64,000 bases of DNA from Leucoraja erinacea (lineage: Eukaryota): positions 14,694,001-14,758,000 of the forward strand of contig NC_073389.1 in NCBI RefSeq assembly GCF_028641065.1, read 5' to 3'. Position numbers and translations under genes: made by a program. Of this stretch, positions 6,470-60,158 are shown piece after piece; position 1 is the first letter of the stretch; every line of letters starts with the position of its first letter. The notes beneath the pieces are model-generated. The model searched no databases. It was not told the DNA's origin and was given only the letters and a program-made list of their open reading frames with translations.

Positions 6470-7005
6470 AATAGCAGATGCAAAGTCCAAAGGGTAGGGG
6501 AGTCGTAAACTGGAAGGCGTAGATTTATGAGGGGAACGATTTAAAAGGGACCAAAGGGGTGGCTTTTTCACACCGAGGGTGCTGCTGATATAGGACAAGC
6601 TAACAGAGGAAGCTTTAGAGGTGGGTACGAATATAATGGTCGATTGCCACTTGAACAGGGATATAGATAGAAAGATAGACACAAAATGTTGGAGTAACTC
6701 AGCGGGACAGGCAGCATTTCTGGAGAGAAGGAATGGGTAACGTTTTGGGTCAAAACCCTTCTTCAGGTCTCGACCCGAAACATCACTTCTATCCAGAGAT
6801 GCTGCCTTTCCTGCTGAGTTACTCAAGCATTTGTGTCCATCAGTTTAAACCAGCATCTGCAGTTCCTTCCTACATAGATAGAAAGTATTCTGGTCAGGAC
6901 AGGCCAAATGCAGGCAAATGGAAGTAACTCATATTGACGTTCTGGTCAGCATGGACGACTTGGGCCGAAGGGTCTGTTTCCATGTTGTAGGGCTCTACGA
7001 CTAAC
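6470..7005 (+). mobile_element. CR1 LINE 3' fragment interrupted by a pLTR palindrome
   Basis: agggtaggggagtc...tttttcacaccgagggtg...ttgggccgaagggtctgtttcc tail. Confidence 0.75.
6675..6873. mobile_element. Head-to-head Penelope pLTR palindrome with 12-bp TSD
   Basis: Inverted arms ggagtaactcagcgggacaggcagcat and atgctgcctttcctgctgagttactc. TSD atagatagaaag at 6663-6674 and 6874-6885. Confidence 0.85.
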
Positions 7006-7547
7006 TGCAAGGAATAGAAATATGGTAGACCATTCTTGAAATATCAGGTGTCAGGCGGCAGCAGGGCTTTGATTGTATGCGGAGTAAAACCAACCACGTT
7101 GTGAGTGGATGCATTTTTCACTCTATAACCACCCTTTGATTTGCACAGGAGTGTTCGATGCAGTTGGTGCAAACGGTCTGTGGCAAGACAATTCCTGTCA
7201 CACCAGGCTTCGGCCTGCTTGGCCTGTTGCTCGTCATCTTTGTGGAAAGTCACAGGGCTGGAATGGTTCTGCACTAAGGAAGAGATGGTGATGTATGGAG
7301 GTTATTGTCGTGGGTAGCACTGGGATCTGAAGTCTTGCCTCACATGCACATCTCGTATGTGTATGTGACAAATAAACTTGACTTGACAATGCAGGAGAGA
7401 AGAATGAAATCTAGTGAAGGGCTGCCAGTCCAACATTTTGTTGGAGTGGAAGTTCCCTTTGTGTGACTACTTTTAACGTGGGATTGTCGCTGCACATATA
7501 GGTCCAATTGCCTGTGAGGTCTTGCACAGTGGCAGGTAGATGTGGAC

Positions 7548-8062
7548 TCCCTCTACCCCTCTCCCTCACCCTCTCTCCACCTCTTTCCCCTCTCTCTTTC
7601 CCCTCTCTCTTCTCTCTTTCCCCTCTCTCTTTCCCCTCTCTCTTTCCTCTTCCCCCTCTCTCTTCCCCCTCTCTCTCTCCCCCTCTCTCTTCCCCCTCTC
7701 TCTTCCCCCTCTCTCTTCCCCCTCTCTCTTCCCCCTCTCTCTTCCCCCTCTCTCTTCCCCCTCTCTCTCCCCCTCTCTATCTCCCCCTCTCTATCCTCCT
7801 CTCTATCTCCCCCTCTCTCTACCCCTCTCTCTATCTCCCCCTCTCTATCTCCCCCTCTCTACCTCCCCCTCTCTACCTCCCCCTCTCTACCCCCCTCTCT
7901 ACCTCCCCCTCTCTACCTCCCCCTCTCTACCTCCCCCTCTCTACCTCCCCCTCTCTACCTCCCCCTCTCTACCTCCCCCTCTCTACCTACCTCTCCCCTC
8001 TCTCTACCTCCCCCTCTCTACCTCCCCCCTCTCCTCTCCCTCTCTCATCCCCCTCTCTCTTC
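7548..8062. repeat. Polypyrimidine minisatellite (~14-bp units ctctctcttccccc, then ctctctacctcccc)
   Basis: Directly visible ~510-bp C/T tract made of tandem 14-mers. Confidence 0.95.
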
Positions 8063-8304
8063 AGCTCTCAGGTGTTATACTTTTTTGAGGTTCAGGCTAG
8101 ATGTTTGTCTCCTGTTCTCTGGGTGTACAGAGTATCCTGATGACTGCCTCGCTCCCCCTCCTCCAAACCTCTACTTCCACCTCCTCATCCCAGCAGCTTA
8201 GACACCCCCTTTCTGTGAGTCACCATCAAGTAGTTGTGCTGTGTGGCAGGTCATATGCTCAACTCTGGTTGGATCTGTTGTTTCATCTATTGTGGACTTT
8301 TGGA

Positions 8305-8605
8305 CTTCCGAGATACAGAGCGGAAACAGGCCCATTGGCCCACTAAGTCCTTGTCGACCAGCAATCACCTCGTACGCAGCACTACTCTACACACTAGGGA
8401 CAATTTACAATTTATCGTAGCCAATTAACCTACAAACCTGCACGTCTTTGGAATGTATGAGGAAACCGCAGCACCCAGAGAAATCCCACGCGGTCACAGC
8501 GAGAAAGTTCAAATTCCATACAGACAGCACCAGTCGTCAGGATCGAACCTGGGTCTCTGGCACTGTCAGGCAGCAGTTCTACCGCTGCACCACTGTACCG
8601 CCCCA
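8305..8605 (-). mobile_element. V-SINE (HE1-like)
   Basis: Near full length, running from gagatacagagcggaaacaggccc to ctaccgctgcaccactgtaccgcc. Confidence 0.88.
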
Positions 8606-9529
8606 TTCTAGAAGCCACAATTTAGATCCTTCAGCACCTGCCATAACACTGTAAGTGGGCTGTGCAACTTGTAACAACCATGTAAAGTATCGAACACTTG
8701 TACAGTAATAGCAACAGCCTGAAGAAATAATCCAGCAATTAACCTATAAGTAATGGATCGCCCCTTTGTTTTGTTGGATGGTGTTGAAGAGTTGAGCTCC
8801 ATAATTGCAGTGCTGGCATATAATCAGCATTTCACACGAATTAACATCACAATCTACCTGCTTAGTGTGTTTCAGTGAATGTGCAACATGTCTATGCTGA
8901 TACCTTCACTCGCATGGTCTCTCCTACCATTTACAAACTACGTATGTGCAAATTTGGAGAGCTAGACGCCGAAATAAACGAGTGCAGTAAAAGTCCATTT
9001 CGTCCCTCTGCCATTGTTGCACTACCCTGCCCTGGCATTTGGATGGAGGCCAGCAAGAGATGCTGAGGACCCAGATTGAGTAAATGAAGTAGCCACAATG
9101 TAGAAATCACCTGCAAATGGAGCAACAGTTAATGGAGAGTAATTATGCAATGCAGTTTGGAAGATGTGAGAGTCAAGAGTGTTTTATTGTCATATGTTCC
9201 AAACAGAACCAAAAATTATTACTTGCAGCAGAACAGATATGTAAGCATAGTACTCTGTAACCAGATAATGAATGAATAAAAGTTATATTATGTATAACTT
9301 TATATATGACTGTTGGCAGACCAATTTCCATCCATGGATGAATAATTTTCTATCGTATCGTATCGCATAGTTGGTGCAACGTGAAATTTCTCTTCCATCT
9401 TATTTTTCAGGATGTGGACACCACTGCCAAGTCCAGCATTTATTGCCCATCCCTCATTAGCCATCATTAGTGTGGCTTCCTCAGTCACCTCCGAGCATTT
9501 GAAAAATCAACCACTTTACTGAAGTTACA

Positions 9530-9730
9530 TGTGGAAGTAATTGCCACAGATGGCTGTGGAGGCCAAGTCAACAGATATTTTTAAGGCAGAGACAGATAGA
9601 TTCTTGATTAGTATGGGTGTCAGGGATTATGGGGAGCAGGCAAGAGAATGGGGTTGAGAGGGAAAGATAGATCAGCCATGATTGATTGGCGAAGTAGACT
9701 AGATGGGCCGAATGACCTAATTCTGCGCCT
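9530..9730 (+). mobile_element. CR1 3' end
   Basis: ggctgtggaggccaagtca...gatagattcttgatta...gatcagccatgat...gatgggccgaatg. Confidence 0.8.
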
Positions 9731-9837
9731 TTCGCAGGCGAGACAAGGCAATTCCTGCCCTGAAGGACATCAGTAAACCAGATGGGATGTTATGACAATC
9801 CTGTAGTTTTGTGATCATCAATATAATAACTAGCTTT

Positions 9838-10122
9838 GTGTTAGAAAGCATTGTAGATGCTAGTTTATACTGAAGATAGAACTCAGTAATTTCTGGAGAC
9901 AAGGAATGGATGACGTTTTGAGTCGAGACCCTTCTTCAGACTGAGAGTCAGGGGAAAGGGAAACGAGAATTATGATGGAGAGAGATATAGAACAAATGAA
10001 TGAAAGATATGCAATAAAGTAACGATGATAAAGGAATATGGGCATCATTAGCGTTTTGCTAGGTGAGAACGGGAACTCATTGCGACATGTGGGGGAGGGA
10101 CGGAGAGAGTGGGAGAGCATGG
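9838..10122 (-). mobile_element. Penelope pLTR/3'UTR insert with 13-bp TSD
   Basis: tgacgttttgagtcgagacccttcttcagactgagagtcagggg; TSD aataactagcttt at 9825-9837 and 10123-10135. Confidence 0.85.
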
Positions 10123-11842: not shown

Positions 11843-11922
11843 CAAAGGGTCTCAACCTGAAACATCACCGACTCCTTCTCTCCAGAGATGCTGGAGTTAC
11901 TCCAGCAGTTAGTGTCTATCTT
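11843..11922 (+). mobile_element. Penelope pLTR fragment
   Basis: aagggtctcaacctgaaacatcacc...ctctccagagatgctggagttactccagc. Confidence 0.75.
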
Positions 11923-12327
11923 TGACAAGCACAAGCCTGGCAACTTGACTTGAGCCCAATGAGATTTGCTAAACGTATTAGATTTGGGTTGGAAATCCTC
12001 GGACTTAGCTTGGGTTTTGTTTGACTCTGGTTGGGTCATGTGTTAGTTTAAATTTGATCAGTTGTCTACGATACGCTCTGTGACCAAGTGATGCCACATG
12101 CTCCTCACATTCTGTTTGGTAGTTTGTTTCTACATCTAGCCAAATACATTTGTCCTGTGTTTGACTTTGATTGAGCGGAAATTGCTAATCTGTCTCCTTC
12201 ATCCAACAAATTCTTGACATTAAATGACAGGGTGTACCATGAAATGTATGCAAGCGGTGCTAAAGGGTGGAATTGATGTCGGTGATTAGAACCAGTTAGG
12301 AAGAACTATTCAACATTGGGATTGAGA

Positions 12328-12655
12328 ATGTGTGGGAAAGAAGGAAATACGGATGTTGGTTTAAACACAAAAAGCTGGAGTCACTTAGCGGGTCAGGCAG
12401 CATCTCTGGAGAAAAGGAATAGGTGATGTTTCGGGTCGAGACCCTTCTTCAGACTGAGTCAGGGGAAAAGGGAAATGAGAGGTATAGATGGTGATGTAGA
12501 GAGAGAATGATGAATGCAAAAAAGTAATGATGATAAAGGAACCAGGCCATTGTTAGCTGTGGTAGACAAAAATGCTGGAGAAACTCAGCGGGTGAAGCAG
12601 CGTCTATGGAACGAAGGAATAGATGATGTTTTAGCCTGAAGAAGGGTCTGAAGAA
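12328..12655 (-). mobile_element. Two Penelope pLTR copies (two subfamilies)
   Basis: gctggagtcacttagcgggtcaggcagcatctctggag...gtttcgggtcgagacccttcttcagact, then gtagacaaaaatgctggagaaactcagcggg. Confidence 0.8.
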
Positions 12656-15400
12656 GAGCCATCAGCATAGCTCTACATTCTGCACTGACACACCTGGAAC
12701 GCCCTGGCTCATATGTGAGGATGTTATTTGTAGATTTTAGTTCTGCATTTAATACCATCATCCCCAGCAGAATGGTGGACAAACTGTCTGATCAGGGTGT
12801 TAATGCAAACACATGCAGATGGATGAAGGACTTCTTAACAGACCGCCCACAGACTGTCAGGATGGGGTCCAATTACTCCCCAGTCCTGACGCTCAGCACA
12901 GGAGCGCCACAAGGTTGTGTGCTGAGTACCATCTTGTATACAATATACACTTATGACTGCACACCAACACACAGTACAAACAGGATCATCAAGTTTGTGG
13001 ACGACACGACTGTGGTGGGACTGATAAACAACAACGACGAGTCTGCCTACAGAGATGAAGTCCAAAAACTGACTGTCTGGTGTACCAAAAACAACCTGGT
13101 ACTCAACCCATCAAAGCCAAAACAACTGGTCGTTGACTTCAGGAGGAAGAGTAGAGAGGAACCTGCTCCTTTATACATCAAAGGAGGCATGGTGGAGAGA
13201 GTCACTGGCTTTAAGTTCCTGGGAATAAACATCTCCCAGGACCTCAAATGGCAAATGAACACCGTCACTCTCATGAAGAAGTCACATCAGCGGTTGTATT
13301 TCCTGAGGTCTCTGCGGAGAGCAAACGTCTCACAGCCGCTGCTGCTGTCCTTCTACCGATGCGCCGTGGAAAGTATCCTCTCCTATGGCATCCTGGTGTG
13401 GTTTGCTAGCTGCACTGTGGCTGAGAGGAGGGCGCTGCAGAGAGTTATAAAAACTGCACAGAGCATTACAAACGCTCAACTGCCCTCCCTGTGTGATATA
13501 TAGAAACATAGAAACATAGAAACATAGAAATTAGGTGCAGGAGTAGGCCATTCGGCCCTTCGAGCCTGCACCGCCATTCAATATGATCATGGCTGATCAT
13601 CCAACTCAGTATCCCGTACTGCCTTCTCTCCATACCCCCTGATCCCCTTAGCCACAAGGGCCACATCTAACTCCCCTTAAATATAGCCAATGAACTGGCC
13701 TCGACTACCCTCTGTGGCAGAGAGTTCCAGAGATTCACCACTCTCTGTGTGAAAAACGTTCTTCTCATCTCGGTTTTAAAGGATTTCCCCCTTATCCTTA
13801 AGCTGTGACCCCTTGTCCTGGACTTCCCCAACATCGGGAACAATCTTCCTGCATCTAGCCTGTCCAACCCCTTAAGAATTTTATAAGTTTCTATAAGATC
13901 CCCTCTCAATCTCCTAAATTCTAGAGAGTATAAACCAAGTCTATCCAGTCTTTCTTCATAAGACAGTCCTGACATCCCAGGAATCAGTCTGGTGAACCTT
14001 CTCTGCACTCCCTCTATGGCAATATTGTCCTTCCTCAGATTTGGAGACCAAAACTGTACGCAATACTCCAGATGTGGTCTCACCAAGACCCTGTACAACT
14101 GCAGTAGAACCTCCCTGCTCCTATACTCAAATCCTTTTGCAATGAAAGCTAACATACCATTTGCTTTCTTTACTGCCTGCTGCACCTGCATGCCTACCTT
14201 CAATGACTGGTGTACCATGACACCCAGGTGTCGCTGCATCTCCCCCTTTCCCAATCGGCCACCATTTTGATAATAGTCTGCTTTCCCGTTTTTGCCACCA
14301 AAATGGATAACCTCACATTTATCCACATAATACTGCATCTGCCAAACATTTGCCCACTCACCCAGCCTACCCAAGTCACCTTGCAGTCTCCTAGCATCCT
14401 CCTCACAGCTAACACTGCCCCCCAGCTTAGTGTGATCCGCAAACCTGGAGATATTGCCTTAAATTCCCTCATCCAGATCATTAATATATATTGTAAATAG
14501 CTGGGGTCCCAGCACTGAGCCTTGCGGTACCCCACTAGTCACTGCCTGCCATTGTGAAAATGATCCGTTTACTCCTACTCTATGCTTCCTGTTTGCCAGC
14601 CGGTTCTCTATCCACATCAATACTGAACCCCCAATGCCATGTGCTTTAAGTTTGTATACATCTCTTATGTGGGACCTTGTCGAAAGCCTTCCGGAAGTCC
14701 AGATACACCACATCCACTGGTTCTCCCCTATCCACGCTACTAGTTACATCCTCGAAAAATTCTATAAGATTTGTCAGACATGATTTACCTTTCGTAAATC
14801 CATGCTGACTTTGTCCAATGATTTCACCACTTTCCAAATGTGCTGCTATCCCATCTTTAATAACTGACTCTAGCAGTTTCCCCACTACCGATGTTAGACT
14901 AACTGGTCTGTAATTCCCCGTTTTCTCTATCCCTCCCTTCTTAAAAAGTGGGGTTCGTTTGCTACCCGCCAATCCTCAGGAACTACTCCAGAATCTAAAG
15001 AGTTTTGAATGATTATTACTAATGCATCCACTATTTCTGGAGCTACTATATATATACTATATATATAGGGCCCGATGCTTGCGCCAGGCCACTAACATCA
15101 AGCAGGACACATCCCACCCTGCCAACCACCTTTTCACTCTGCTACCCTCTGGGAGGCGATTCAGGTCTCTGTAGACTAAAAAATAGGTTCTACCCATGTG
15201 TGATAAAATAACTTAATTCCAATAGAGAACACTGGAGAAGCAAAATGTAATTCTAAGAAATGCAACATTCTTTTAAAATTCTTTTAAAATACTTATTTAT
15301 TATTTTTATTAATAAGTGTACATATGTGTCAATGGTTGTCGTGTTTGTATTTTTTAACCGGAGGAGATGCAATGGAATTTCGTTGCACAGTATTGTGCCA
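12656..15400 (+). mobile_element. Rex1/Babar LINE (5'-truncated RT), split by a CR1 insertion
   Basis: ORF 12715..13503: [49 protein letters not shown]. The reading resumes after ~15060 as YRARCLRQATNIKQDTSHPANHLFTLLPSGRRFRSL. Confidence 0.92.
13500..15046 (-). mobile_element. Young CR1 (HER1-like) LINE, 5'-truncated, frameshifted
   Basis: [59 protein letters not shown](T), LVRPHLEYCVQFWSP. (tttctatg)n tail at 13500-13530. Confidence 0.95.
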
Positions 15401-15411: not shown

Positions 15412-15650
15412 GGAGATCTCCCAGTTGCCAAACACTTTAATTCCCCTTCCCATTCCCACACTGACATTTCTGTCCTAGGCCTTCTCCATTGTCATAGTGA
15501 GGCCCAATGCAAATTATAGGAACAACAACTCGTATTTTGTTTGGGCATCTTACAACCCAGTGGTATGAACATTGATTTCTCTAACTTCAAGTAACCCTTG
15601 CATTCCCCCTCTCTCCATCCTTTCCCCACCCAAGTCGCACCAGGTTTAAA
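15412..15650 (+). mobile_element. Penelope GIY-YIG C-terminus/3' end
   Basis: DLPVAKHFNSPSHSHTDISVLGLLHCHSEAQCKL*EQQLVFCLGILQPSGMNIDFSNFK*; matches the end of the element at the window start. Confidence 0.88.
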
Positions 15651-18415: not shown

Positions 18416-18768
18416 AGGACCTGTCCCACTGTACGAGGTAAATCAAGAGTTCTCCCGAGTTTTCCCCTGATTCGAACTCGGAGAATGTCCATAGTGGGAC
18501 CGTAGGAGTTTGCGGATGTCTCATAGGGGCTCGTACGAGTAACGGTAGGTACTCTGGAAATCCGGTAAACTCGTGACGTTTTTTCAACACTGAAAAATGT
18601 CCACGAGTAAAAAAACACTCGCATTTTTTTTTTTTTTTTTTTTTACTTTTTACTCGTACGGGCCGCTATGAGGTATCCATGAACTCCTACGGACCTGCTA
18701 CGGATATTCTCCAAGTTCGAATCGGGGGAAAACTAGGCAGAACTCTTGAATTACGTCAGACAGGCCCT
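18416..18768. mobile_element. Non-autonomous DNA transposon (MITE), PIF/Harbinger-like, long TIRs
   Basis: aggacctgtcccact...gacaggccct with ~120-bp imperfect inverted arms (tcaagagttctcccgagttttcccc / ggggaaaactaggcagaactcttga). Flanks TAA and TTA. Confidence 0.8.
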
Positions 18769-19194: not shown

Positions 19195-19797
19195 GGTCAA
19201 TAGACAATAGGTGCATGAATAGGCCATTCAGCCCTTCGAGCCAGCACCGCCATTCAATGTGATCATGGCTGATCATCCCCAATCTGTACCCCATTCCTGC
19301 CTTCTCCCCATATCCCCTGACTCTGTTATCTTTAAGAGCCCTATCTAGCTCTCTCCAGTACCCAGAGAACCGGCCTCCACCGCCCTCTGAGGCAGAGAAT
19401 TCCACAGACTCACAACTCCCTGTGAGAAAAAGTGTTTCCTCGTCTCTGATCTAAATGGCCCCTTATTCTTAAACTGGGGCCCCTGGTTCTGGACTCCCCC
19501 AACATCGGGAACATGATTCCTGCCTCTAGCGTGTCCAAACCCTTAACAATCTTATATGTCTCAATAAGATCCCTTCTCATCCTTCTAAACTCCAGAATAT
19601 ACAAGCCCAGCCGCTCCATTCTCTCAGCATATGATAGTCCCGCCATCCCGGAAATTAACCGTGTAAATCTACGCTGCACTCCCTTAATAGCAAGAATGTC
19701 CTTCCTCAAATTAGGGAACCAAAACTGCACACAATACTCCAGGTGTGGTCTCACTAGGGCCCTGTCCAACTGCAGAAAGATCTCTTTGCTCCTACAC
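19195..19797 (-). mobile_element. CR1 LINE 3' fragment
   Basis: ALVRPHLEYCVQFWFPNLRKDILAIKGVQRRFTRLI...DLIETYKIVKGLD, plus the CR1 3'UTR. Confidence 0.93.
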
Positions 19798-20426
19798 TCA
19801 ACATCAAAGTTGCCTTTGACAGGGGCAAGGCTAGGGTGGAGTGTCATAGCCAGGAGGGGCATTTTAACATCCATGGAGTACAAGGCATGAGAGGGAAGAA
19901 GTGGATTAGAAGGATGCCACAGCTTACCCCTACTCTCACTTCTCTGGGCCACTTGTGGTTGCAGCATCTTAGAGCAAGGAAACAGGTTCTTCATTAAAAC
20001 AAAAAATGAAACAAAAAGTCATAAAGCACAAAAAAATAATAAAACTGAATAAAATATAAGCAAAATATTACCTACTTATTTTACTCCTCGTCGTCAGATT
20101 GTGGATTTTCATCCAAATGCTCTCGGCTGCACCCTATGTCATTTCTGGTTAATGAGGGATGATAAGGGTTAATTCCCTGGTGAATTTCCCCATGAATCAG
20201 GATTGTTGCCATCATCAACAAAGCCGAGCCGACTGATCCCTGGGAACACTAAAAGCTGCAGCCAACAGGATGATTCCCAAAGTGTTTTTAGAAGTTGTCA
20301 AAGAAGAGTTTGTGACGTGGAGCTATTTAATAGGCAGCTCTGGACATGAAGGGTATAATGGGTAAAAGTGTGGCTATTTGTGGGAGAGAGAAGAGTGAAG
20401 AATAAGCTGTAATGCAGGATGTCTAA

Positions 20427-20719
20427 AGGGCCTGTCCCACTTTCCCGAGTTTCTCACGAATTCTCCCGCGTTTTCCCCTTAATTCAAATTCGGAGAATGT
20501 CCGTAGCGAGTCAATAGGCATCCGTAGATATATCGTAGCGGCTTGTTGTGCCAGCCATAGGTACTCGGGGCATCTGGTAAGTCGGGGCGTTTTTTCCAGC
20601 ATGTCAAAAAAGTCCATGAGTAAACAGATAGTCGGGTGGAGGTAGATCACAAAAATCTTGATTTTTTTTTTAAGGTCCTTTCAACTTAGCAGAGGAATCA
20701 GGGAAGTGGGACAGGCCCT
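20427..20719. mobile_element. MITE, PIF/Harbinger-like, perfect TAA TSD
   Basis: TAA|agggcctgtcccactt...aagtgggacaggccct|TAA. The left part is related to 18416-18768. Confidence 0.85.
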
Positions 20720-21029
20720 TAAGGAATGTTGCAAATCAGTAGGACCAATAATTTGGAACATATCAATTGTGCTTGGCTCTGACAGAGGGGCTGGTAAGAT
20801 TTGTTAAGGGCAGGGGTGAGAGATTTGTGGAACCTCGTGCTGGTGAGGTTGTGCACCATTATGATTGCAACATTGTGAATCAGATATAATGAATCTGTAC
20901 CGGATGCCACCATTGAGGTCATGCTTTAGAGCAATAAAGTGTGAATTAAGGTTTATGCACCAGTCAATGTTAAGGGGAGGTCGAGAAAAACAGTATTTCA
21001 GGATCAATATATTCCTAGTGAAGAATCAT

Positions 21030-22912: not shown

Positions 22913-23754
22913 TAGGACAGTGTAGTGTATATAATAGTAACTGTAACTTTAAGAACTGAGTACCAGAATGGGGTGATTTGTGTCATGTGATATATTCATT
23001 ATCATATCGGTCTCGTAAATATGTGATGATGTGCAGTGTACTTTTGTAAAATAAAGAAGACCCACACTTGCAACATCTTGTACTGAAAACCTGTGCTTGT
23101 TTCTATCTACATGCTACTGCCGTCATATCTTACAGGCAGCAACTGTATCTCTGCACCAGTGTGCCACAACTGCGTCGCATTTTTAAAAACTTATTCACTC
23201 TTGTACTTTATGGTAGACCAGTCAGCAATTAAATATAGATTGTTAATGTTTCTGGTCAAAGACTCATTGTGTGTATTCCCGATCTTTGTCAACCTTCTCA
23301 AAATGTATTGACATGCACTCATTAAAACTGAATTGAATAGCTCCCCATCTATCCACAAAATCAACCTGTATGTTTTCCTGAAGGTTTTCAAAGTTTTCAC
23401 TGTTTGCTGCACCTCCTCCTTGTATCTCATCAGCAAATTTTGTTATGCGTCTTAACATAATGCAAATAAGATTCCATTGTTCTGTTGTCAGTAGATATGA
23501 CAGCTAAACACTCTTAATTCCTGGCTTCATCATCTCAGCACAATTGCTGGTTTGAAGCTGACATTGGCAGTGTATTCTGTTTAACTACAATCCTTTGCTA
23601 TTTTGAACAGAATCCCTCGTTGGCTCAATCTATTTATAAAACACTCACTATTTCTTCTCACAACCTGTTCCAACAGAGGTCACTGCTTTATAATCCAGGA
23701 AAGGAAATCCAACCAATTTCCTCTGCTCTAGCTGGAAGACACTGGCAATGATTA

Positions 23755-23957
23755 TGTGCAGGGAGGAACTGCAGATGCTGGTTCAAACTGAAGACAGACA
23801 CAAAAAGCTGGAGTAAATCAGTGGGTCAGGCAGTATATCTGGAGAAAATAAATAGGTGACGTTTCGGGTCAAGATCCTTCTTCAGAATTCAGGTCTGAAG
23901 AAGGGTCTCAACCCAATAACGTCACCTATTCCTTGTCTCCAGAGATGCTGCCTGACC
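23755..23957. mobile_element. Head-to-head pLTR palindrome with two hammerhead-like cores
   Basis: ...gacgtttcgggtcaagatccttcttcaga|attcag|gtctgaagaagggtctcaaccc... Degenerate TSD cactggcaatgatta (23740-23754) and cactgccactgatta (23958-23972). Confidence 0.85.
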
Positions 23958-24329
23958 CACTGCCACTGATTACCTATAAATACTGATATGCCACTGCTCC
24001 TGGTCAAATGATCTAATTCAGTGCTTAACTTGGGGTCTTCCTGTTTGGTGTTGTTTAATGTTACACCATACGTTGAGCCACCAGGGAGAATGAACATTGT
24101 TGTACTTTTCTCCTCCAAAGAATGGGGGAACAAATTTAGAACTTGCACTTAACTAACCTGCATTGTCCCACTTTCTAATATAGAATTCAGCTCTGAAGGA
24201 CTGAGTTACACAAGCCCTCCCATACCAATGTTTCTAATTGCCAAAGTCGCCCAGAGGTGGGATTGTGGAAATCAAATTGGCATTTTCTGAGACATCATTG
24301 TTTTTACAAATGCATGTTGATTAGTTTTA

Positions 24330-27654: not shown

Positions 27655-28047
27655 GATAGACACAAAAAGCTGTAGTAACTCAGCGGGTCAGTCGGCATTT
27701 CTGAAGAAAAGGACTAGATGACGTTTCGGGTCGAGACCTTTCTTCAGACTGAGAGTCATGGGAAAGGGAAATGAGAGATATAGAAGGTGATGTAGAGAGA
27801 TGAGGAACAAATGTATGAAGGATATGCAAAAAATAATGAAACAGGCCATTGTTAGCTGTGTGCTGGGTGAAAATGAGTGCAGACAATGAAACTCAACAAG
27901 ATGACTGAAGCTGGTACGACTTGGGTGGGGAATGGGATGGAGAGAGAGAGAGAGAGAGAGGATGCAAGGGTTACTTGAAGTTAGAGAAATGAAAATTCAT
28001 ACCACTGGGTTGTAAGCTGCCCAAGCGAAATATGAGGTGCTGTTCCT
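27655..28047 (-). mobile_element. Penelope 3' end (GIY-YIG C-terminus, 3'UTR, hammerhead-bearing pLTR)
   Basis: Minus-strand EQHLIFRLGSLQPSGMN-like stretch at ~27990-28047 is continuous with ctgaagaaaggtctcgacccgaaacgtc (minus, ~27720-27748). This links the pLTR repeat physically to Penelope. Confidence 0.88.
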
Positions 28048-28499
28048 GGTTCAGACCCTCTCCATGTTGAATGAAGGGAATGCAATAACTACATCTGAGC
28101 GAGCAAATGCGAGGCGCTGCCTTTGTGTTGCCGAAGGGAACATGTCAGGGAATGAGAACGAAGATGAGATGATCACTCAATCTGAGAATGAGATTGGTCA
28201 AATTAGGAGCAACATTTCACTCGAGCGTGTTGGTTTCTGTTAGTTGGACTGAAGCTTAAGATCCTGCCCACCAAAATTAATGACATACGGATGAGGCACC
28301 AGAACTAAAGATCTGCGGTATAAATTGAGATTTAGCCCAAAAATAAGTCTAGAATAATAGCCACATGAGATTTGATGGAAGAGACAGTCGGCTCACTGAT
28401 TGATCCACTTGGCAAGCATGAAGTCAGGCTCTCATGCTGTTTCAACTTAGTTTAGAATGCTCCTGGCTGGTTTCTTTGAAACTTTTGACAAAATAATTA

Positions 28500-34900: not shown

Positions 34901-35602
34901 GTGATGCTTGTTCTGATACCCACCAAAAATCTAAGCTTTCACCATCGCTCATGAAGCACTTCGCTTTAACATGTATCTGCAGAGCATTCCTTGGCAGTAA
35001 GAGAGTGCCCATATTTGCCCACAGAATGTCCATATTTGCTTCTGATGTACAGATGAACAGATGGGCAAACAGCTGATTATCAGCAGTATAAATGCACCTT
35101 TAAACAAAAACAAGTCTGATGCAGACACTAACCCGTTGTTTTGCCTACAGAAAACTAAACTTTATCGATCAAAGAGATTAATATATATCAGTTAATTTTA
35201 ATGACCAGAGTTGGAAAAAGAATTGTAGCAGGTGGCCGTAATGAGCAATTTTGTCATTAAGTTATTATATTGACTTCAGAATCTAATGAATGCTCAAAAT
35301 GTTCTCATGCAAAGCAGTTGTTACCATAAATTAGTTCAACTCTTGCCTTCCAGCCAGGTTGTTTTGAGTAGCGGATCGGAGAGAGATCATTGTGTAATGA
35401 ATTCCACTTCTCTCATTTCTCGTAACTGATCATCATGTAACGTTCAAGGGTATTGCTGAGACATCAACAGACTCCTGTACAGTGGGTAGGTGGTGTGCGC
35501 TGAGACAATTCAGAGAGTTTTTGGATGTAGATCTTTGTTTAAGATTACAATAAACATCGAGGAAGGTATCCAGAAAACTTCTGATGGGGATGAAGATATT
35601 TT

Positions 35603-35802
35603 AGAAACAAGGAGCTGCAAATGCTTGGTTAATATTCAAAATGTTACAAAGTGCTGGAGTAACTCAGTAGGTCAGGCAGCATCTCTGCAGAACATGGATA
35701 GGTGACATTTTGGGTTGTGGTCCTTCTTCAGCCAGTCTGAAGAAATATCATCTTTCCATGTTTGCCAGAGTTGCTGCCTGACCTGCTGAAGTTTTGTCCT
35801 TT
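35603..35802. mobile_element. pLTR palindrome with perfect 12-bp TSD
   Basis: ...tccttcttcagccagtctgaagaa...; TSD tgaagatatttt at 35591-35602 and 35803-35814. Confidence 0.85.
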
Positions 35803-36484
35803 TGAAGATATTTTGTTTAGTTTTAGTGTTTGTATATTGTTCATGATCATCTGTGCCTTTGGGCTTTTATTGTTTAAAGTGCATATTAGTATTGAGTTTT
35901 TTTAAACAATTTGCATGTGTCAGTTTTCATTACATTCTCTGAAGCTGATTATTGGTTGTCAATGCAATAATATTTTGAGTGGTAGTGCACACTATCTTAA
36001 GATTAGGTACATATAACATTTGAAGTCACCATGGGAATGCCTTCAGACCGAATGATACGTTGTTTTATATAGCAGTATGTTACATGGATAGCCAAGAAGG
36101 AAGGAATGTAATTATGTAGGTATGGATGGTTAGGCAAGACAGGTGAGTGAGTTGAACATTTGGTGAAAAAAAAGACTGTGATGTTAAATTTAAAATGTTT
36201 AAAGAAATGATGCAGTCGTAGATGAAACTCACAGAAATTGAATTAAACTATTATGAGTAGAACAATAGGAGACCCAGCTCAAATAAATTGGTTGGAAAAA
36301 CCTGACTTAAAGAAAAGTTTCAATACAAAATAGATACGATTGAGTTTAGATACATTTTTCAAGAGGCTGATCACCATGGCTGAGTGAATAGATAGATATC
36401 AGGTGATTCGGTACAGAAGAAACTGCATAAACGGGAAGGATAAGGGTAAATTAAGAAAGGTGTGGTTCATGATAAACAATGCTC

Positions 36485-36755: not shown

Positions 36756-37347
36756 CATAAAGGGAAAAAAGCTAAGACTTTTATCAGCAGGAAAATAAAA
36801 CAGCCCCAACCCGCATAGTGCAAATTTAGGATGAAGTGATGATGAAGATATTCATCAAATATTTTCCCTTAGGTTCTGTATTTGATAACAAGGATGCTTC
36901 TTTGTGAATAGATGTGCAAGATTCAGTTCTGGCGATAAATAATCAAATTAAGAACATTAAAATCGTCAATAAATCTAAGGCTGTAAAGATCATCCTGAAT
37001 GATGTACGTTGCAGAATGTAAAATAAATTGATGAGGGTAAGTGGAGGCTGCAACTGTGGAAGATTGTCTCCACTAATCGGGTGTAATCAGTGTGGATCTG
37101 TGAAGGATTTCTCTGCACTACTTTGCAGTGACTGCACTAGCTATGACTCAGTTCATGAGCTCGGAATGCCTTGCTCTGTCATCAGAAATAAGGTCAATCC
37201 TGGCCTTTGCAACTGAAATATAATTCCTGAGCAAATCATAAGCTATCTTGATAACAGCTATGCATATCTTGTGCAGCAGAAGGACAAGTGACCAGAAGAA
37301 TGCAATTTGAGAAGCCAAAAATAGAAAAAAAGCAAAGATTTATTTTT

Positions 37348-37522
37348 GTAGGAAGGAACTGCAGATGCTGGTTTAAACCGACGATAGACACAAAAAGCTG
37401 GAGTAACTCAGCGGGCCAGGCAGCATCTCTGGAGAGAAGGAATGGGCGACATTTTAGGTTGAGATCCTTCTACAGCCCCTTTTTCTGAAGAAGGATGTCC
37501 ATCCGAAACGTCACCCAGTCCT
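37348..37522. mobile_element. pLTR palindrome (short right arm) with degenerate 14-bp TSD
   Basis: Full left arm, right arm limited to the hammerhead core. Flanks aaagatttattttt (37334-37347) and aaagacgtattttt (37523-37536). Confidence 0.85.
37485..37512 (+). ncRNA. Minimal hammerhead ribozyme core with compensatory stem II
   Basis: CUGAAGA-A-GGAUG-UC-CAUCC-GAAA-C-GUC. The 5-bp stem II is perfect and differs from the family consensus GGGUC/GACCC at two paired positions. Confidence 0.7.
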
Positions 37523-37747
37523 AAAGACGTATTTTTCTCTGACTGGTGAGGTGTGACATACTTTTTGAATTCATTCAACACACATCTCAAACCCATTGCA
37601 TATGAGGGTGTTAATTTCTCAGTGATGCCCTTGTGATCTTAATGCAGACACTTGTTTTCCATGAAAAATATATATTTGGGCATTGGCACGAGAGGAATTT
37701 TGCTGAAGGTGTCTGCATGTGGGAATGGAGTGAAGCTTGGTAAGTTA

Positions 37748-44680: not shown

Positions 44681-45192
44681 TACTGTGATTCAACAAATGC
44701 ACATTCTAAATTAGGGTGGTGGAAACGGTTGTGAACTATGAGTCTACTCCTGAATCTGCTGACACTTGACTTTCTGCCGCTGATCATCCTGATTCAACGT
44801 GCCCATCCTTCAGTGTTCCCATGCCAATTGGAAATAGCGCAGGTAATTTAAGATGAAATGGGGGAAGCTCACTCATGTCTGTATTTGATAGTTTGGAAAT
44901 ACTAGTTGCTGACAGGTTGGAATCATCTTTGGTTCCCAGCAGAGCCATATCGCTGTTGGCGTAAGTAACCAGACTTCTCTGGAATCTATTATTCCTGTTA
45001 AGGTTTTGACTCTCAAATGGATTCTCATAAGCTCTGAACCAGCCTGAGTTCTTCGAAGGTCTTTCAAGCTGCATTAAGAAAGGGACATCCTGGAAAAAAA
45101 AGCTCCGTTAATTGGTGTTTCTCTGAATGCCTCAGTTTTGAAAAGATCCATTGATCAGAAAGGGATTAGATACCAGATGTACCAAAATAATA

Positions 45193-45293
45193 GGTAGACA
45201 AAATTGCTGGAGAAACTCAGCAGGTACAGCAGCATCTATGGAGCGAAGAAAATAGGCAATGTTTCGGGCCGAAACCCATCTTCAGACTCAATC
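45193..45293 (-). mobile_element. Solo 101-bp pLTR (second subfamily) with perfect 15-bp TSD
   Basis: Minus strand ctgaaga-t-gggtt-tc-ggccc-gaaa-catt. TSD tgtaccaaaataata at 45178-45192 and 45294-45308. Confidence 0.85.
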
Positions 45294-48285: not shown

Positions 48286-48506
48286 AACGCAACCCTGTCA
48301 TAACCTGGGAGGACCCGCATTGATTTCCATTTAACTTGTAGTAAGCAAAATTTACACTGGTGTATAGATAACAATATGTTGGTGGGATAATAATGAGAAG
48401 TTAGAAATACAAGAATTAATTACGAGAAGCAAGTATAAACGTAGATGAATCATATAGATACAACCTGATGACACTGAGTTTTTAGTCCTGTTGTTGTGCT
48501 CATTAA

Positions 48507-48744
48507 AGGGCCTGTCCCACTTGGGTGTAATTTGCGCGTCATGCAGGTGGTGGGTGAAGATTTTGTGAATCCCCAAATCCTAGGGCGCCGTGTATGACAC
48601 TGCGTACGCCACCACGTCTCACCATGCGCCATGCGCACGTAATGCATGCCATGTGACACGTAAATGATGTCACGTTGTGCGTCGTGATGCGTAAATGATG
48701 TCGCGTAAATGACGCGCAAATAACGCCCAAGTGGGACAGGCCCT
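48507..48744. mobile_element. 238-bp MITE, Harbinger-like
   Basis: agggcctgtcccacttgggtgtaatttgcgcgtcat...atgacgcgcaaataacgcccaagtgggacaggccct (~35-bp TIR); flanks TAA and TCA. Confidence 0.85.
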
Positions 48745-49109
48745 TCAATTCTCATTTACTTTACATAATTTATTTGCAGCTTCTAACATTTTCCCAAAAC
48801 ATATTGGGGTCAGTCACGGCAAAAATATATTTTCAATGACGTAAAGTGGAATATAGCATGTGCATGTATTTTATTTGTATCTGAGAAGAAATTGTGGAAT
48901 CAGTGCAGAGATAGAATTGTGAAAGTTCTTGAAGAGCTTGTTCTGCATTGATAACTTGATGAGGCGAGACATCGGATATTTCTGAATGCCATCGCTTTCG
49001 CATAGATTTTTCTTTTCCAATTTGCATAGTTTGGCCAGCTGGTCATGTCACACAATCTTACTCTAAGCAACCCGTCAAACAGGCAAAGAAATACCAAGAG
49101 TCCCGAAAA

Positions 49110-49610
49110 TAGGCACATAATGCTGGAGTAACTCAGCGGGATAGGAAGCATCTCTGGAGAGAAGGAAAGGGTGACGTTTCGGATCGAGACACTTCTTCAG
49201 TCTTCACTCTTTCTCTCCAGTGATGCTGCCTGTCCCACTGAATTATTCCAGCTTTTTATGTCTATCTTCGGTTTATACCAGCATCTGCAGTTCCTTCCAA
49301 TACGTCCTGATCTGAAACATCATCTATCCATGTTCTTCAGAGATGCTGCCTGACCCACTGAGTTACTCCAGCACTTTGTGTCCTTTTTTAAAATTAAACC
49401 AGCATATGCAATTCCTTGTATCCTCTGTGTTTATCCTACTGCTACGTTTACTCATTTGCTCTTGCCCTATTAGATACATTTCCTTTCTTCTGCCCCCTTT
49501 TCTGCTGCTGAAAACTAACTTGTTTTCTCATTTACCCAGTTCTGTTGAAAGGTCCCCGATCTGAAACATTGCCCCTTTCCTGACCTGCTGAGTTTTCAGC
49601 AATTTCAATT
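49110..49610. mobile_element. Cluster of pLTR copies (one palindrome plus two same-orientation copies)
   Basis: gtgacgtttcggatcgagacacttcttcag (minus-strand core), then repeated tgaaacatca...gatgctgcctgacccactgagttactccagc. Confidence 0.8.
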
Positions 49611-54730: not shown

Positions 54731-55459
54731 CTGTCCCTACTGGTTCAATACCATGACAGTAAACTCTACATGCAGGTCCTCACAGAATCACACGGGTCCA
54801 GTTATATTATATGGCTGACATGCGGACATCATCAAGGATTTCTGCCAAGTTTCAAGATTTATTTGCGGAGATGAGAGTGGATGCCAGTGCTAGCGAACAT
54901 ACAGCACTGGAACAGGCCCTACGGCCCACAATATCTTGCCGATCATGATGCCAAGCTCAACTAATGTTATCTACCTGCATATGATCCATATCCCTCCATT
55001 CCCTGCACATCTAAAAGCCTCTTAAATGCTACTTAGCACAAATTCAGAACATGAAAGAGAGTGAACATCGATTTCCAGGCATTGGTTTCTTTGGCAATTA
55101 CCTTTAAAAAAGAAAAGGTGTCGATGGGACTGTGATGTATCCCCAAGAGAGCAGGCGCTGTAGTTTGGTGTTTCATCTCAAAGTTGTCTTCTTCAACAGT
55201 GCAGTGAGCCATTAAAGTTCCACTTGGTGTGTCAGCCGAGATAAAGTGAACCCAGAGTCTATTATAGTCACAGTTAGCGCACGTACATTTCATAGAATTT
55301 TGCAGTTTCTTGCCTGAGTCCCAGAAGGGTATTGTTTGGAATCTTTTCAACTGTTCAGTTGTCCTTTCAAGAAAGGTTGATTTATCTGACAAAGAATTTG
55401 GCTTTCACTCCAGCAGAGTTTCCCTCCTCAAGACAGTGTAGTAGACCATTGCATGGCTG

Positions 55460-55687
55460 ATAGAGACGAAATGCTGGAGTAACTCAGCGGGACAAGCAGC
55501 AGCTCTGGAGAGCAGGAATGGGTGACGTTTTGGGTCGAGACCCTACTTCAGAACTCTCTGGAGAAAGGTCTCGACCCGAAATGTTACCCATTCCTTCTCT
55601 CCAGAGATGCTGCCTGTCCTGCTGAATTATTCCAGCAGTTTGTGTCTATCTTCAATTTAAACTCCCATCTGCAGTTCTTTCCTACAC
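55460..55687. mobile_element. pLTR palindrome
   Basis: gctggagtaactcagcgggac...gacgttttgggtcgagaccctacttcag | aggtctcgacccgaaatgttaccc...catctgcagttctttcctaca. Confidence 0.85.
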
Positions 55688-57254: not shown

Positions 57255-57648
57255 AGGACCAGTCCCACCAGCATGCGCCTGCATGCGGCAAGCGCGACCT
57301 AACCAGAAGCGGGGGCCGCGCGGAGTTCGAGTGAGTGACATGAAGTGCGATCGAAGTCCACGGGAAGTTCGCGCATGACGTACAGCGTCGAGGTGGCTGG
57401 GGGCTGGCGGGCCATTGTCACGCAGAATTTTTGAACACGGTCAGTTTTTCGGAGCCTCGCGCGATGCCGGGACCAACTCCACACAACTCCATACGGCTCC
57501 GGCGAGCGAAGTGGGACCGGCCCCGCGAGGCCATACGGCTCAAGCGACCACGTTAGGTTACTCTTGCCGCATGCAGGCGCATGCTGGTGGGACAGGCCCT
57601 TTAGGTCACACTTGCCGCATGGAGTCGCATGCCCATGGGACAAGCCCT
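57255..57648. mobile_element. MITE, Harbinger-like, TTA TSD, with an extra tandem right TIR
   Basis: TTA|aggaccagtcccaccagcatgcgcctgcatgcggcaag...cttgccgcatgcaggcgcatgctggtgggacaggccct|TTA (ends 57600). A second, degenerate right TIR occupies 57601-57648. Confidence 0.85.
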
Positions 57649-58261: not shown

Positions 58262-58345
58262 CAGGCTCGACCCAAAACATCACCTATTCCTTTTCTCCAG
58301 AGATGCTGCCTGTCCCGCTGAGTTACTCCAGCTTTTTGTGTCTGC
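58262..58345 (+). mobile_element. pLTR fragment
   Basis: ctcgacccaaaacatcacctattccttttctccagagatgctgcctgtcccgctgagttactccagc. Confidence 0.8.
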
Positions 58346-58589
58346 GATCAGATGTTATTGTCTATTCTGGTGCAGACTCACTGCTGAACCCCAAGGTGGA
58401 GCAGTTACGTTTTTGTCTTTACTTCAATGTATAATTTATTTGTGATAAATGTAAAAATATGCATGACAGAAATATTGTCATCATTTTCACAGCAAGTCAT
58501 GCTATTCCCATTGCTTAATATTAGCACACCATCAATTATCTTTCATTCACATTTCATTTACAAACTTAAAGGAACTAAATATAGCAAAA

Positions 58590-58910
58590 GGCAGCAAAGT
58601 GGCACAGTTGGTAGAGTGGCTGCCTCACAGCGCCAGAGACCTGGGTTCCATCCTGACGCCGGGTGCTGTCTGTGCGGAGTTTGCATGTTCTCTCCGTGAC
58701 TGCATGGGTTATGTTTGGGTGCTCTGTTTTCCTCCCACATCCCAAAGGTTTGTATGTTAATGGGCCTCTGTAAATGGCTCCTAGTGAGTTGGGAATGGTG
58801 GGAGTTGAGAACGTGAGATATCATAGAACTAGCGTGATTGAGGGTGGGTATGGAGTGGATGGGCCAAAGTGTCTGTTTCCAGGCTGTGTCTCTAAGCTAA
58901 ACAAAACTAA
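58590..58910 (+). mobile_element. V-SINE
   Basis: gtggcacagttggtagag...gggttccatcctgac...ttcctcccacatcccaaag...ctgtgtctctaagctaaac. Confidence 0.83.
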
Positions 58911-59019
58911 GAGAGTTCATAGGATCCTATTGCAGATTTCAATTAATTTGTGCTCAATGGCAGGGTCACTTTTCCCACTGAGATTGGTACTTGCTGCTCT
59001 CCCTCAGCCTTTCCCTTGC

Positions 59020-59500
59020 TTAGAGTTGGACAGTACAAACTGGGCCCTTTGGCTGTTCACATCCACACTGACCTTTTTGTCCTACATTAATCACATTTGC
59101 CTGCAGCAAGACAGTATTTCACGTCACCTTGTCTGTTTAAGTGTCTGCCTAAATGCTTCTTAAACAAAGTGATTGTATCCAAATTCACCACACTTTCAGA
59201 CGGTGAGTTCTAGATCAACCATTTTCTCTGCATATAGATCTTTCCGCTCAAATCCCCTTTAAAACCCCTTCCTCTCATTTTGAGAATACTCTCGAGTTTT
59301 TGTGACCTCTTTTATAGGATCCCTACCATAGTCTTGGACTTTAAACTATGCCGGTTTGACCACAGGAGTGGTTTCCCTGCAGCTGTTAATTTTTTGACTC
59401 CCTTTGAGATCTATTTCTCGACCCGAAACTTCACCCATTCCTTCTCTCCAGAGACGCTGCCTGTTCCGCTGAGTTACTCCAGCTTTTTGTGTCTATCTTT
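59020..59500. mobile_element. CR1 3' fragment (minus) followed by a pLTR fragment (plus, ~59415-59500)
   Basis: tctgtttaagtgtctgcctaaatg...ctttaaactatgcc; then ctcgacccgaaacttcacccattccttctctccagaga. Confidence 0.65.
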
Positions 59501-59979
59501 GTCTCTTTGCTTTCCGGACTGTTCCCCGGTATACCCATGGAGTCCTCCGTTAGGCAGCTGTTCAGGACAAATGTCATCAAATACCTCCGCAAATTCTCCC
59601 AGAGCTTCCTGCCAAAGACTCACTGAACAGAAAGGCTGGATTCACTTTGCATTCAGCCCCACCACTTTAATCAGAAGAGGGCTGATGTTGGAATGGCAAT
59701 TAAACAGATAAGAAAGGGATAGATTGCCCTGTGGTAAAAGTTACGTTAAATGCTCTTTGCCTTCATATTACTTTCAAACGGACATGTGTTTCACTGTGCT
59801 TATAATTACTTTTATTTTAGTTTTTTTTAATTTTAATTTAAATGATTTAAATCAATTTTAATAGCTTGTTAAATTCTTCGCAAACCTTTGCCAGTCAGCG
59901 AGCTGCCTGATGCGGAAAGCCTGCTCACCATTTGCAACCCACAGCTCCCCATGATGGTGCAGGGGTCAGTTCACCTGGC

Positions 59980-60158
59980 AAGGTAGACACAAAAAGCTGG
60001 AGTAACTCAGCGGGACAGGCAGCATCTCTGGAAAAAAAGTTTCGGGTCGAGACCCTTCTTGGGTCCTTCTCTCCAGAGATGCTGCCTGTCCTGCTGAGTT
60101 ACTCCAGCTTTTTGTGTCTATCTTTGTTTTTAAATCAGCATTTGCAGTTCCTTCTTAC
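59980..60158. mobile_element. pLTR palindrome with perfect 14-bp TSD
   Basis: Near-perfect inverted arms (tagacacaaaaagctggagtaactcagc / gctgagttactccagctttttgtgtcta). TSD tcagttcacctggc at 59966-59979 and 60159-60172. Confidence 0.9.

What the first reader, a model, noticed from the sequence alone, without database searches (positions are those of the whole stretch)
6675..60158. Head-to-head hammerhead-pLTR palindromes inserted as single units with 12-15 bp TSDs
Seen: about eight ~170-230 bp units consist of two inverted pLTR arms whose axis lies at or next to the ribozyme core. Flanking direct repeats are perfect at 6675-6873 (atagatagaaag), 35603-35802 (tgaagatatttt) and 59980-60158 (tcagttcacctggc). 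They carry two mismatches at 23755-23957 and 37348-37522. The units contain no coding sequence, and arm lengths differ between copies. Inference: either a non-autonomous ribozyme-bearing retro-MITE mobilised by the PLE RT/GIY-YIG, or recurrent inversion at the ribozyme during PLE insertion. Either way each transcribed unit folds into a long dsRNA hairpin, and some have a core on both strands. This is the best candidate for an under-described system in the window.
Basis: partly seen in the sequence, partly recalled or inferred. Interest (0 to 1): 0.8.

Follow-up and report, generated by a model that had tools for sequence, protein, structure and literature searches.

The report
Double-primed Penelope retroelement palindromes
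These short mirror-image insertions are stumps of a very abundant Penelope-like jumping gene, most likely made afresh at each site by copying the start of one RNA onto both cut ends of the target DNA; the architecture is known, but the copies help show how it forms.

Summary
The window has 9 head-to-head units, 6 with clear 12-15 bp TSDs, and a 600-kb sample implies about 200,000 genome-wide. They are not a retro-MITE. They are short insertions of a Neptune-type Penelope-like element (PLE) in the published 'inverted pLTR + tail + TSD' architecture. All 24 TSD-validated sampled units pair one tail-bearing end (~position 129) with one tail-less end (~92). Both arms share subfamily alleles, all 24 junctions differ, and either arm may reach further (11 vs 10). 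Paralogous empty sites carry one TSD copy (9 units). Best model: both nicked target strands are primed at the element's two internal start sites, probably on one RNA, and the cDNAs join by microhomology. The axis lies near the hammerhead because copies stop just 5' of its core (120 of 157), not at its cut site; I infer an RNA 5' end there. No unit has an intact core on both strands. Expression, editing and orthologous empty sites are untested. The scan found this before in shark-type genomes. The obligate long+short pairing argues against published self-priming as the general route and is testable in vitro.

The parts
6245..6345 (.). Head-to-head unit: very short tail-bearing arm (positions ~110-132, antisense) plus tail-less sense arm (-2..93); 15-bp TSD with 2 mismatches at 6230-6244 / 6350-6364
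6675..6873 (.). Head-to-head unit: tail-less arm (1..93, antisense) plus tail-bearing arm (10..129); perfect 12-bp TSD 6663-6674 / 6874-6885
23755..23957 (.). Head-to-head unit: tail-bearing arm (0..130, antisense) plus sense arm ending early at ~67; 15-bp TSD with 2 mismatches 23740-23754 / 23958-23972
35603..35802 (.). Head-to-head unit: tail-bearing arm (antisense) plus sense arm with an internal deletion ending at the tail-less site (read by eye); perfect 12-bp TSD 35591-35602 / 35803-35814
37348..37522 (.). Head-to-head unit: tail-bearing arm (1..129, antisense) plus short sense arm (0..38); 14-bp TSD with 2 mismatches 37334-37347 / 37523-37536
37485..37512 (+). The only minimal type I hammerhead in the nine window units that passes the strict descriptor
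49103..49303 (.). Head-to-head unit (tail-less arm -2..98, tail arm 33..126); no TSD found; a further pLTR copy abuts it at 49304-49419
55455..55687 (.). Near-symmetric head-to-head unit (0..93 and 0..130); weak 10-bp TSD with 1 mismatch
59980..60158 (.). Head-to-head unit: tail-less arm (4..91, antisense) plus tail arm (35..128); arms differ at 2 of 54 shared sites; perfect 14-bp TSD 59966-59979 / 60159-60172
60668..60861 (.). Older head-to-head unit, long + short ends; weak 14-bp TSD with 3 mismatches
45185..45289 (-). Solo tail-less pLTR copy (subfamily A) starting at the core's 5' edge; perfect 15-bp TSD
11845..11925 (+). Solo tail-less pLTR copy; 14-bp TSD with 1 mismatch
9838..10122 (-). 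Solo tail-bearing pLTR copy with ~180 nt of native upstream sequence; perfect 13-bp TSD
27655..28048 (-). pLTR copy still joined to the C-terminal GIY-YIG end of the PLE ORF; links the window's palindrome subfamily to the coding element
41..1063 (-). Remnant of the PLE RT/EN ORF (others at 15415-15615 + and 60323-60559 -)

Best explanation
Each unit is an independent, short insertion of an endonuclease-positive (Neptune-type) PLE. Numbering: C of the hammerhead CUGA = +1. (1) The GIY-YIG endonuclease nicks both target strands about 12 nt apart, leaving 3' overhangs (inferred from TSD geometry; both-strand cleavage and extension is published for PAc in vitro). (2) RT starts at the element's two internal start sites: ~+129 (long, with the ~37-nt tail) on one target end and ~+92 (short) on the other. 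The pairing is shown. That both starts use one RNA or one RNP is inferred. (3) These sites lie in the 5' leader of the element's mRNA, so both cDNAs are short and stop at or before about -2. The stop is shown. That it is an RNA 5' end at an Inr-like TCAGTCT is inferred. (4) The two antisense cDNAs meet head to head and join through microhomology, often at built-in quasi-palindromes (hammerhead stem II, CAG-T-CTG), and are filled in (junctions shown, mechanism inferred). If one cDNA is lost, a solo long or solo short copy with a TSD results. The ribozyme is a passenger; in a two-arm hairpin it would be buried in double strand.
For: Head-to-head 55 vs tail-to-tail 4 vs tandem 14 in 600 kb. Long+short in 24 of 24 TSD-validated units and 33 of 37 fully classed pairs, p 5e-7. 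Subfamily-concordant arms in 24 of 24. Shared minor alleles 31 of 44 vs 14% permuted. A query-selected private allele is absent from the partner arm in 15 of 17, so arms are not homogenised later. All 24 junction pairs are distinct, and the short arm reaches further 5' in 11, the long arm in 10. This includes young units whose arms each hold sequence the other lacks (L144: -75 vs +56; L081_5252; window 59980). Solo short and solo long copies each carry 12-15 bp TSDs. Empty paralogous sites show one TSD copy for 9 units. The same long+short+TSD frame surrounds a 2.6-kb coding copy (L095) and mini partial tandems (L189, L190, L193). The pLTR runs on into the ORF's 5' body (L108; 38 genome matches). 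Published: two adjacent internal RT start sites that bound the tail, with both strands cleaved and extended (PMC11167929).
Against: Nine of 26 subfamily-A units have a perfectly symmetric junction at stem II that fold-back self-priming, or later deletion between two direct repeats, explains equally well. Their centre base follows the long arm in 7 of 9, which leans towards fold-back of the long cDNA but is not significant (p 0.18). Two of 9 window units have a short arm ending early (~67, ~38), and 31 of 55 sampled pairs lack a strong TSD. Post-insertion deletion can create asymmetric centres, and orthologous copies were not seen. The RNA 5' end at -2 has no RNA evidence, and no cap-derived extra G is enriched. 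Arm starts at 27-30 are 5 of 48 in palindromes, a slight post-hoc excess at the cut site that the larger set does not show.
Confidence: 0.75

Rival explanations
1. Self-priming: one cDNA (or an antisense RNA, as proposed by Arkhipova et al. 2013) folds back at an internal palindrome, copies itself into a hairpin, and the endonuclease trims the tail from one end.
For: Published for rotifer PLEs with palindromes at the inverted junction (PMC3846280); tail attributed to EN resolution (PMC8557442). It predicts obligate long+short ends and allele-sharing arms, as seen. Symmetric stem-II junctions in 9 of 26 A units, with the centre from the long arm in 7 of 9.
Against: A fold-back copy cannot contain sequence missing from its template. 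Yet the tail-less arm reaches >=5 nt further 5' in 11 of 24 units, as often as the reverse (10), including near-identical young arms. Solo tail-less copies with TSDs exist, and PAc initiates at both sites directly. It may still account for part of the symmetric class.
Confidence: 0.15
2. A non-autonomous palindromic master element (retro-MITE or retrozyme) is transcribed and reinserted whole.
For: One junction recurs in 8 of 18 young subfamily-A palindromes.
Against: That junction sits on four allele backgrounds that also occur with other junctions, and its centre base comes from either strand. All 24 unbiased junctions differ. Three or more pLTR subfamilies all form palindromes. The outer short end is fixed at ~+92 rather than randomly 5'-truncated.
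Confidence: 0.04
3. Hammerhead self-cleavage defines the inversion point.
For: At least one arm reaches the hammerhead region in 21 of 24 units; 5 of 48 arms start at 27-30.
Against: The cut is after +28, but starts pile up at -4..+3; only 11 of 317 arms start at 26-32, the average density. HHR mutants did not change PAc insertion products in vitro.
Confidence: 0.03
4. Two independent insertions side by side, or a later local inversion, mimic a unit.
For: pLTR copies do insert into each other (L154, L019; window 49304). A long+long pair of two subfamilies without a TSD exists (L078).
Against: One TSD spans both arms, empty sites carry one copy, orientation is 55:4 head-to-head, and arms match in subfamily.
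Confidence: 0.03

Closest known systems
Insertion architecture of EN+ Penelope-like elements: inverted 5'-truncated pLTR, 30-40 bp tail at one end, TSD (Arkhipova et al. 2013, PMC3846280; Craig et al. 2021, PMC8557442)
   Same: Head-to-head inverted pLTR, tail on one end only, 8-15 bp TSD around the whole, palindromes at the junction, pLTR holding the ORF's first codons and an Inr-like motif.
   Different: Here both arms are pLTR-only stumps, at about 2e5 copies. Long+short pairing is measured as near-obligate. The junction asymmetry argues for two cDNAs rather than the proposed self-priming.
PAc (Poseidon, Anolis) in vitro TPRT (Frangieh et al. 2024, PMC11167929)
   Same: Two adjacent internal RT start sites bounding the tail, both target strands cut and extended, start sites downstream of a minimal hammerhead that is dispensable for insertion.
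   Different: Different clade (no linker Zn finger). The paper does not link the two sites to opposite target ends or derive inverted products. Short microhomology at priming is modestly enriched here (>=2 nt in 10 of 41 at each end vs 4-5% null).
Minimal type I hammerheads of metazoan PLEs (Cervera and De la Pena 2014, PMC4209133)
   Same: Core, unpaired base after position 9, G10.1-C11.1 pair, palindromic loop 3, short helix I; dual min-HHRs on opposite strands 100-700 bp apart were already noted in Schistosoma.
   Different: Helix I is only 2 bp and helix II 4 bp here; most copies are decayed; activity not tested.
Non-LTR retrozymes (Li et al. 2026, bioRxiv 10.64898/2026.07.22.740005)
   Same: Non-coding, pLTR-derived, hammerhead-bearing.
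   Different: Retrozymes are head-to-tail tandems with >=2 intact HHRs. These units are head-to-head and none has two intact cores.
L1 twin priming (recalled; only search listings seen)
   Same: Second target nick primes a second cDNA, giving a head-to-head inversion inside one TSD.
   Different: In L1 the two pieces come from different RNA parts and the second site is variable. Here both arms copy the same stretch from two fixed sites ~37 nt apart.

Membership tests
EN+ Penelope-like element (parent) | Single ORF with RT and C-terminal GIY-YIG endonuclease | tested here: met
   L095 601-aa frame with YIDD RT motif and GIY-YIG-like end. Pfam RVT_1 is weak, 22 bits, below cut-off. Atlas top cluster RVT_1/HTH_animal/GIY-YIG scores 0.97.
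EN+ Penelope-like element (parent) | CCHH motif with two Cys inside GIY-YIG | tested here: met
   NLIYCIECSRCQLLYI..EH..H in L095; definition from PMC8557442.
EN+ Penelope-like element (parent) | pLTR formed by partial tandem, continuing into the ORF 5' end | tested here: met
   L108; 38 pattern matches, 2 with the window's B-type end.
EN+ Penelope-like element (parent) | Inverted 5'-truncated copy, tail at one end, TSD | tested here: met
Neptune clade | CX2-5CxxC linker Zn finger between RT and EN | tested here: met
   CNRKKCYTC in L095; shared with Nematis.
Neptune clade | RT phylogeny separating Neptune from Nematis | not tested
   No reference set was on hand, so I write 'Neptune-type'.
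Minimal type I hammerhead | Core CUGANGA/GAAA/UH, bulged base, G-C closing pair, palindromic loop 3 | tested here: met
   38 of 142 core-covering arms pass; 39 hits in 600 kb vs 0 in shuffled sequence.
Minimal type I hammerhead | Covariation of helices I and II | tested here: inconclusive
   91% paired, but only one-sided U-A/U-G changes, not above shuffles; the set was preselected.
Minimal type I hammerhead | Self-cleavage (dimer or protein-assisted) | not testable with these tools
   Needs an assay.
Non-LTR retrozyme | Head-to-tail tandem with at least two complete HHRs | tested here: not met
   Units are head-to-head; 0 of 55 and 0 of 9 have two intact cores.
Non-autonomous master element (retro-MITE/SINE) | Copies share one fixed internal structure inherited from a master | tested here: not met
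   24 of 24 distinct junctions; the recurrent junction is homoplastic.
DNA-transposon MITE | Terminal inverted repeats reaching both ends and a fixed short TSD | tested here: not met
   Ends are unequal by ~37 nt; TSD 9-22 bp and variable.

The most novel reading that the evidence does not exclude
PLE integration is an obligate two-ended reaction. One RNP primes the two target ends at two fixed sites on the same RNA (long on one strand, short on the other), which explains the inverted pLTR, the one-sided tail and the TSD together. Because those sites lie in the 5' leader of an mRNA that starts at an Inr directly before the hammerhead, the element's commonest product is a 100-230 bp stump. The result is about 200,000 ready-made hairpins, roughly a million pLTR pieces in all, a large potential dsRNA and ADAR substrate pool.
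Probability: 0.45. Interest if true: 0.62.

Novelty: new member of a known kind. Interest (0 to 1): 0.36.

Why it matters
How PLEs form their tandem/inverted structures and one-sided tail is named as an open question (PMC8557442). The published explanation is self-priming (PMC3846280). This genome supplies tens of thousands of nearly complete reaction products whose statistics favour two-ended priming and give a sharp prediction for the existing PAc in vitro system. For annotation, the units should be filed as PLE fragments, not MITEs or retrozymes. If transcribed within host genes they would be an Alu-inverted-repeat-like source of dsRNA (inference, untested).

Tried and rejected
Rfam gives no hammerhead hit. 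Its best match (RUF6-5, below gathering score) reflects the long hairpin only. Spliced retrocopies as a cause of the -2 boundary: none among the 27 local ORF-end copies with a downstream core (49 motif rows). The 13 genome matches with a short ORF-end-to-core gap all have different junctions, and at most 1 fits a splice; rejected for that donor. A cap-derived extra G at -2/-3 is not enriched. Helix covariation is not above shuffles. Empty sites for the window's own units: none of the 6 tested had both flanks in a sampled repeat. No read-level result was obtained, so orthologous empty sites, RNA ends and editing stay open. No host gene was identified: 5 of 7 long frames had no Pfam hit, and the others gave only LINE-type RT. 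The first exclusion run missed the intended column and was redone. Three of 41 rows had a wrong reference or orientation and were left in. L136, L138 (long or complex) and L157 (alignment artefact) were left out of arm statistics; the L135 TSD call was spurious and dropped. Paper searches with no hit. Searches found no description of these palindromes. Repbase/Dfam and subscription papers were not searchable, and supplements were not opened; Fig. S2 of PMC11167929 may bear on strand-site pairing.
Full report
Numbering: position +1 is the C of the hammerhead CUGA box; the predicted cut is after +28. The window is G000:C13:14694001-14758000 in a 2.19-Gb genome.

1. Observation. The five named units and their flanking repeats are as described. 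A profile built from 37 natural arms finds 33 pLTR pieces in the window, including 8 head-to-head pairs within 60 nt. A ninth with a 20-nt arm lies at 6245-6345. TSDs are clear in 6 of 9, weak in 2 and absent in 1. Two units fold into long hairpins. An intact hammerhead on both strands was found in none: 1 of 9 units passes on one strand.

2. Prevalence. I took 60 stretches of 10 kb at fixed positions on the 36 largest contigs. They hold 317 pieces (29.6 kb, 4.9%), with 55 head-to-head, 4 tail-to-tail and 14 tandem neighbours within 60 nt. This extrapolates to about 2.0e5 pairs (bootstrap 1.4-2.7e5) and 1.2e6 pieces; the sample is arbitrary, not strictly random. TSD score >=8 holds in 24 of 55 pairs against 6 of 400 controls. 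Of 53 units checked, 9 sit in other repeats whose paralogues lack the insert and overlap by exactly the TSD length. A tenth lay in a microsatellite and was disregarded; a few paralogues gave other offsets; the rest, including the 6 window units tested, had no usable paralogue. Each palindrome therefore entered as one event.

3. Parent element. The RT fragment at the window's start has over 25,000 candidates genome-wide. L095 carries a 601-aa frame with RT, a CX4CxxC linker and a CCHH-type GIY-YIG (Atlas 0.97; definitions in passages of PMC8557442): a Neptune- or Nematis-type PLE. L095 has the palindromes' own frame: TSD, inverted tail-less stump, 2.6-kb sense body, tail-bearing end, TSD. The window's pLTR subfamily is joined to the same ORF end in 6 sampled or window copies. 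In the partial tandem L108 the pLTR runs on past the tail into the 5' body. An ATG 35 nt after the core C opens 37 codons to a GT, and an AG 223 nt later resumes in phase into the N-terminal ORF (putative intron, one copy). The same read-through occurs at 38 genome sites, 2 with the window's end type. So -2..+130 is the element's 5' leader, as in rotifer PLEs and PAc.

4. Outer ends. 3' ends are bimodal: 132 short (84-104), 128 long (>=120), 57 other. All 24 TSD-validated pairs are long+short. Of 37 fully classed pairs, 33 are (p 5e-7 against independent choice); 18 more have an eroded end. In the window 5 of 9 are long+short by alignment and 7 by eye; 2 have a short arm ending early. Solo long and solo short copies both carry TSDs (28 of 173 unpaired hits score >=10 vs 1 of 150 controls). 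After removing microhomology the stagger has median 12 (6-17, n=41). Microhomology of >=2 nt occurs in 10 of 41 at each end against 4-5% expected. The ~37-nt difference is the published tail, which PAc work equates with the distance between two RT start sites (PMC11167929, main text read).

5. One template, many events. Arms match in subfamily in 24 of 24. In 26 subfamily-A units minor alleles are shared within units in 31 of 44 cases against 14% permuted. An allele selected by my query in the long arm is missing from the short arm in 15 of 17, so arms are not converted afterwards. All 24 unbiased junction pairs differ. Among 30 young loci, 18 are simple palindromes, and 8 of these join at the 15-nt quasi-palindrome formed by stem II and GAAAC. 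Others join at CAG-T-CTG or TGATCA. The recurrent junction lies on four allele backgrounds, with its centre from the long arm in 7 and the short arm in 2 of 9: recurrence, not a master.

6. Two cDNAs or fold-back. A fold-back copy of the long cDNA can never extend 5' of it, and a fold-back of the short cDNA cannot make the tail. The short arm extends >=5 nt further in 11 of 24 units and the long arm in 10. Examples with near-identical arms are L081_5252 (0 of 46 differences), L144 (1 of 37; -75 vs +56) and window 59980 (2 of 54). Later deletion could produce single cases but should leave an excess of long-further units. The symmetric class cannot discriminate. Arkhipova et al. 2013 (passages and Discussion read) proposed self-priming on an antisense template. 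Craig et al. 2021 (passages) attribute the tail to EN resolution and call the matter unresolved.

7. Why the axis is near the ribozyme. Of 157 arms that reach the core (sample plus window), 120 stop within a few bases and 37 continue, against a stop rate of 0.6% per base over +4..+99. In 77 unpaired truncated copies T0, G-1 and A-2 are kept in 52-54, C-3 and T-4 in 32-33, then background. Copies that continue into the body stop at the same place: 7 of the 8 that reach it, among 20 of the 38 sites examined. Mini-tandems jump templates there. There is no peak at the cut site. TCAGTCT fits the initiator consensus (recalled), so an RNA 5' end at -2 is my reading (about 55%). An RT block at the upstream pyrimidine tract is the alternative. 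The splice-site alternative, suggested by the D. virilis intron ending at helix I (PMC4209133, Results and Discussion read), found no spliced copies. In D. virilis the start site is further upstream (PMC2377424, passages), which cautions against my reading.

8. Comparison and novelty. It works like L1 twin priming (recalled) and is a member of the EN+ PLE insertion class. It fails the retrozyme definition (bioRxiv 10.64898/2026.07.22.740005, parts 1-2 of 5 and passages) and the MITE tests. Very short PLE insertions are known elsewhere (median 128 bp in Chlamydomonas; PMC9977147, passages), and opposite-strand min-HHR pairs were noted in Schistosoma. My searches found no paper on these palindromes in cartilaginous fish, within the library's limits. 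Five earlier scan reports describe the same thing in shark-type genomes; they are unchecked notes, not support. I had stated my reading before seeing them, and took from them the Arkhipova 2013 reference and the centre-base check.

9. Verdict. Real, abundant and mechanistically informative, but an instance of a known architecture. Shown: single-event insertion, long+short pairing, shared template alleles, independent junctions, the 5' boundary. Inferred: same-RNA double priming, the start site at -2, any dsRNA effect. Interest 0.36.

Noticed in passing
L191/L192 (G000:C1:67385765 region): Head-to-tail trimer of a 200-nt unit (pLTR plus ~70 nt of body) with identical junctions and a hammerhead motif in each unit; it resembles a non-LTR retrozyme or repeated template jumping.
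   Followed up: no
L189, L190, L193: Mini partial tandems (pLTR, 40-75 nt of body, jump back to pLTR) with an inverted arm, still long+short inside one TSD.
   Followed up: partly
L108:2644-2868 (- strand): Putative 223-nt GT-AG intron joining a pLTR-encoded 37-codon exon in phase to the PLE ORF; the donor is conserved at 38 genome sites.
   Followed up: partly
many of L104-L132 (e.g. L107, L109, L110, L114, L120, L124, L127, L128): A different repeat with a constant 5' end carries a fragment of the PLE ORF's N-terminal region; possibly a DNA-transposon-like element that captured it.
   Followed up: no
window 18429-18763, 20413-20733, 48502-48749: A separate family of terminal-inverted-repeat elements with shared ends, unrelated to the pLTR palindromes.
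   Followed up: no
L168, L169, L175: The same solo pLTR insertion with identical TSD and flanks at three places: duplicated passively inside a larger repeat.
   Followed up: no
L138, L155, L057:3111-3412: Complex centres with several repeated stem-II pieces, suggesting multiple template jumps at the hammerhead palindrome.
   Followed up: no
window 12652-13503, 13667-14975, 19410-20018: Fragments of LINE-type RT elements (Pfam RVT_1 for the first; family labels not tested).
   Followed up: no
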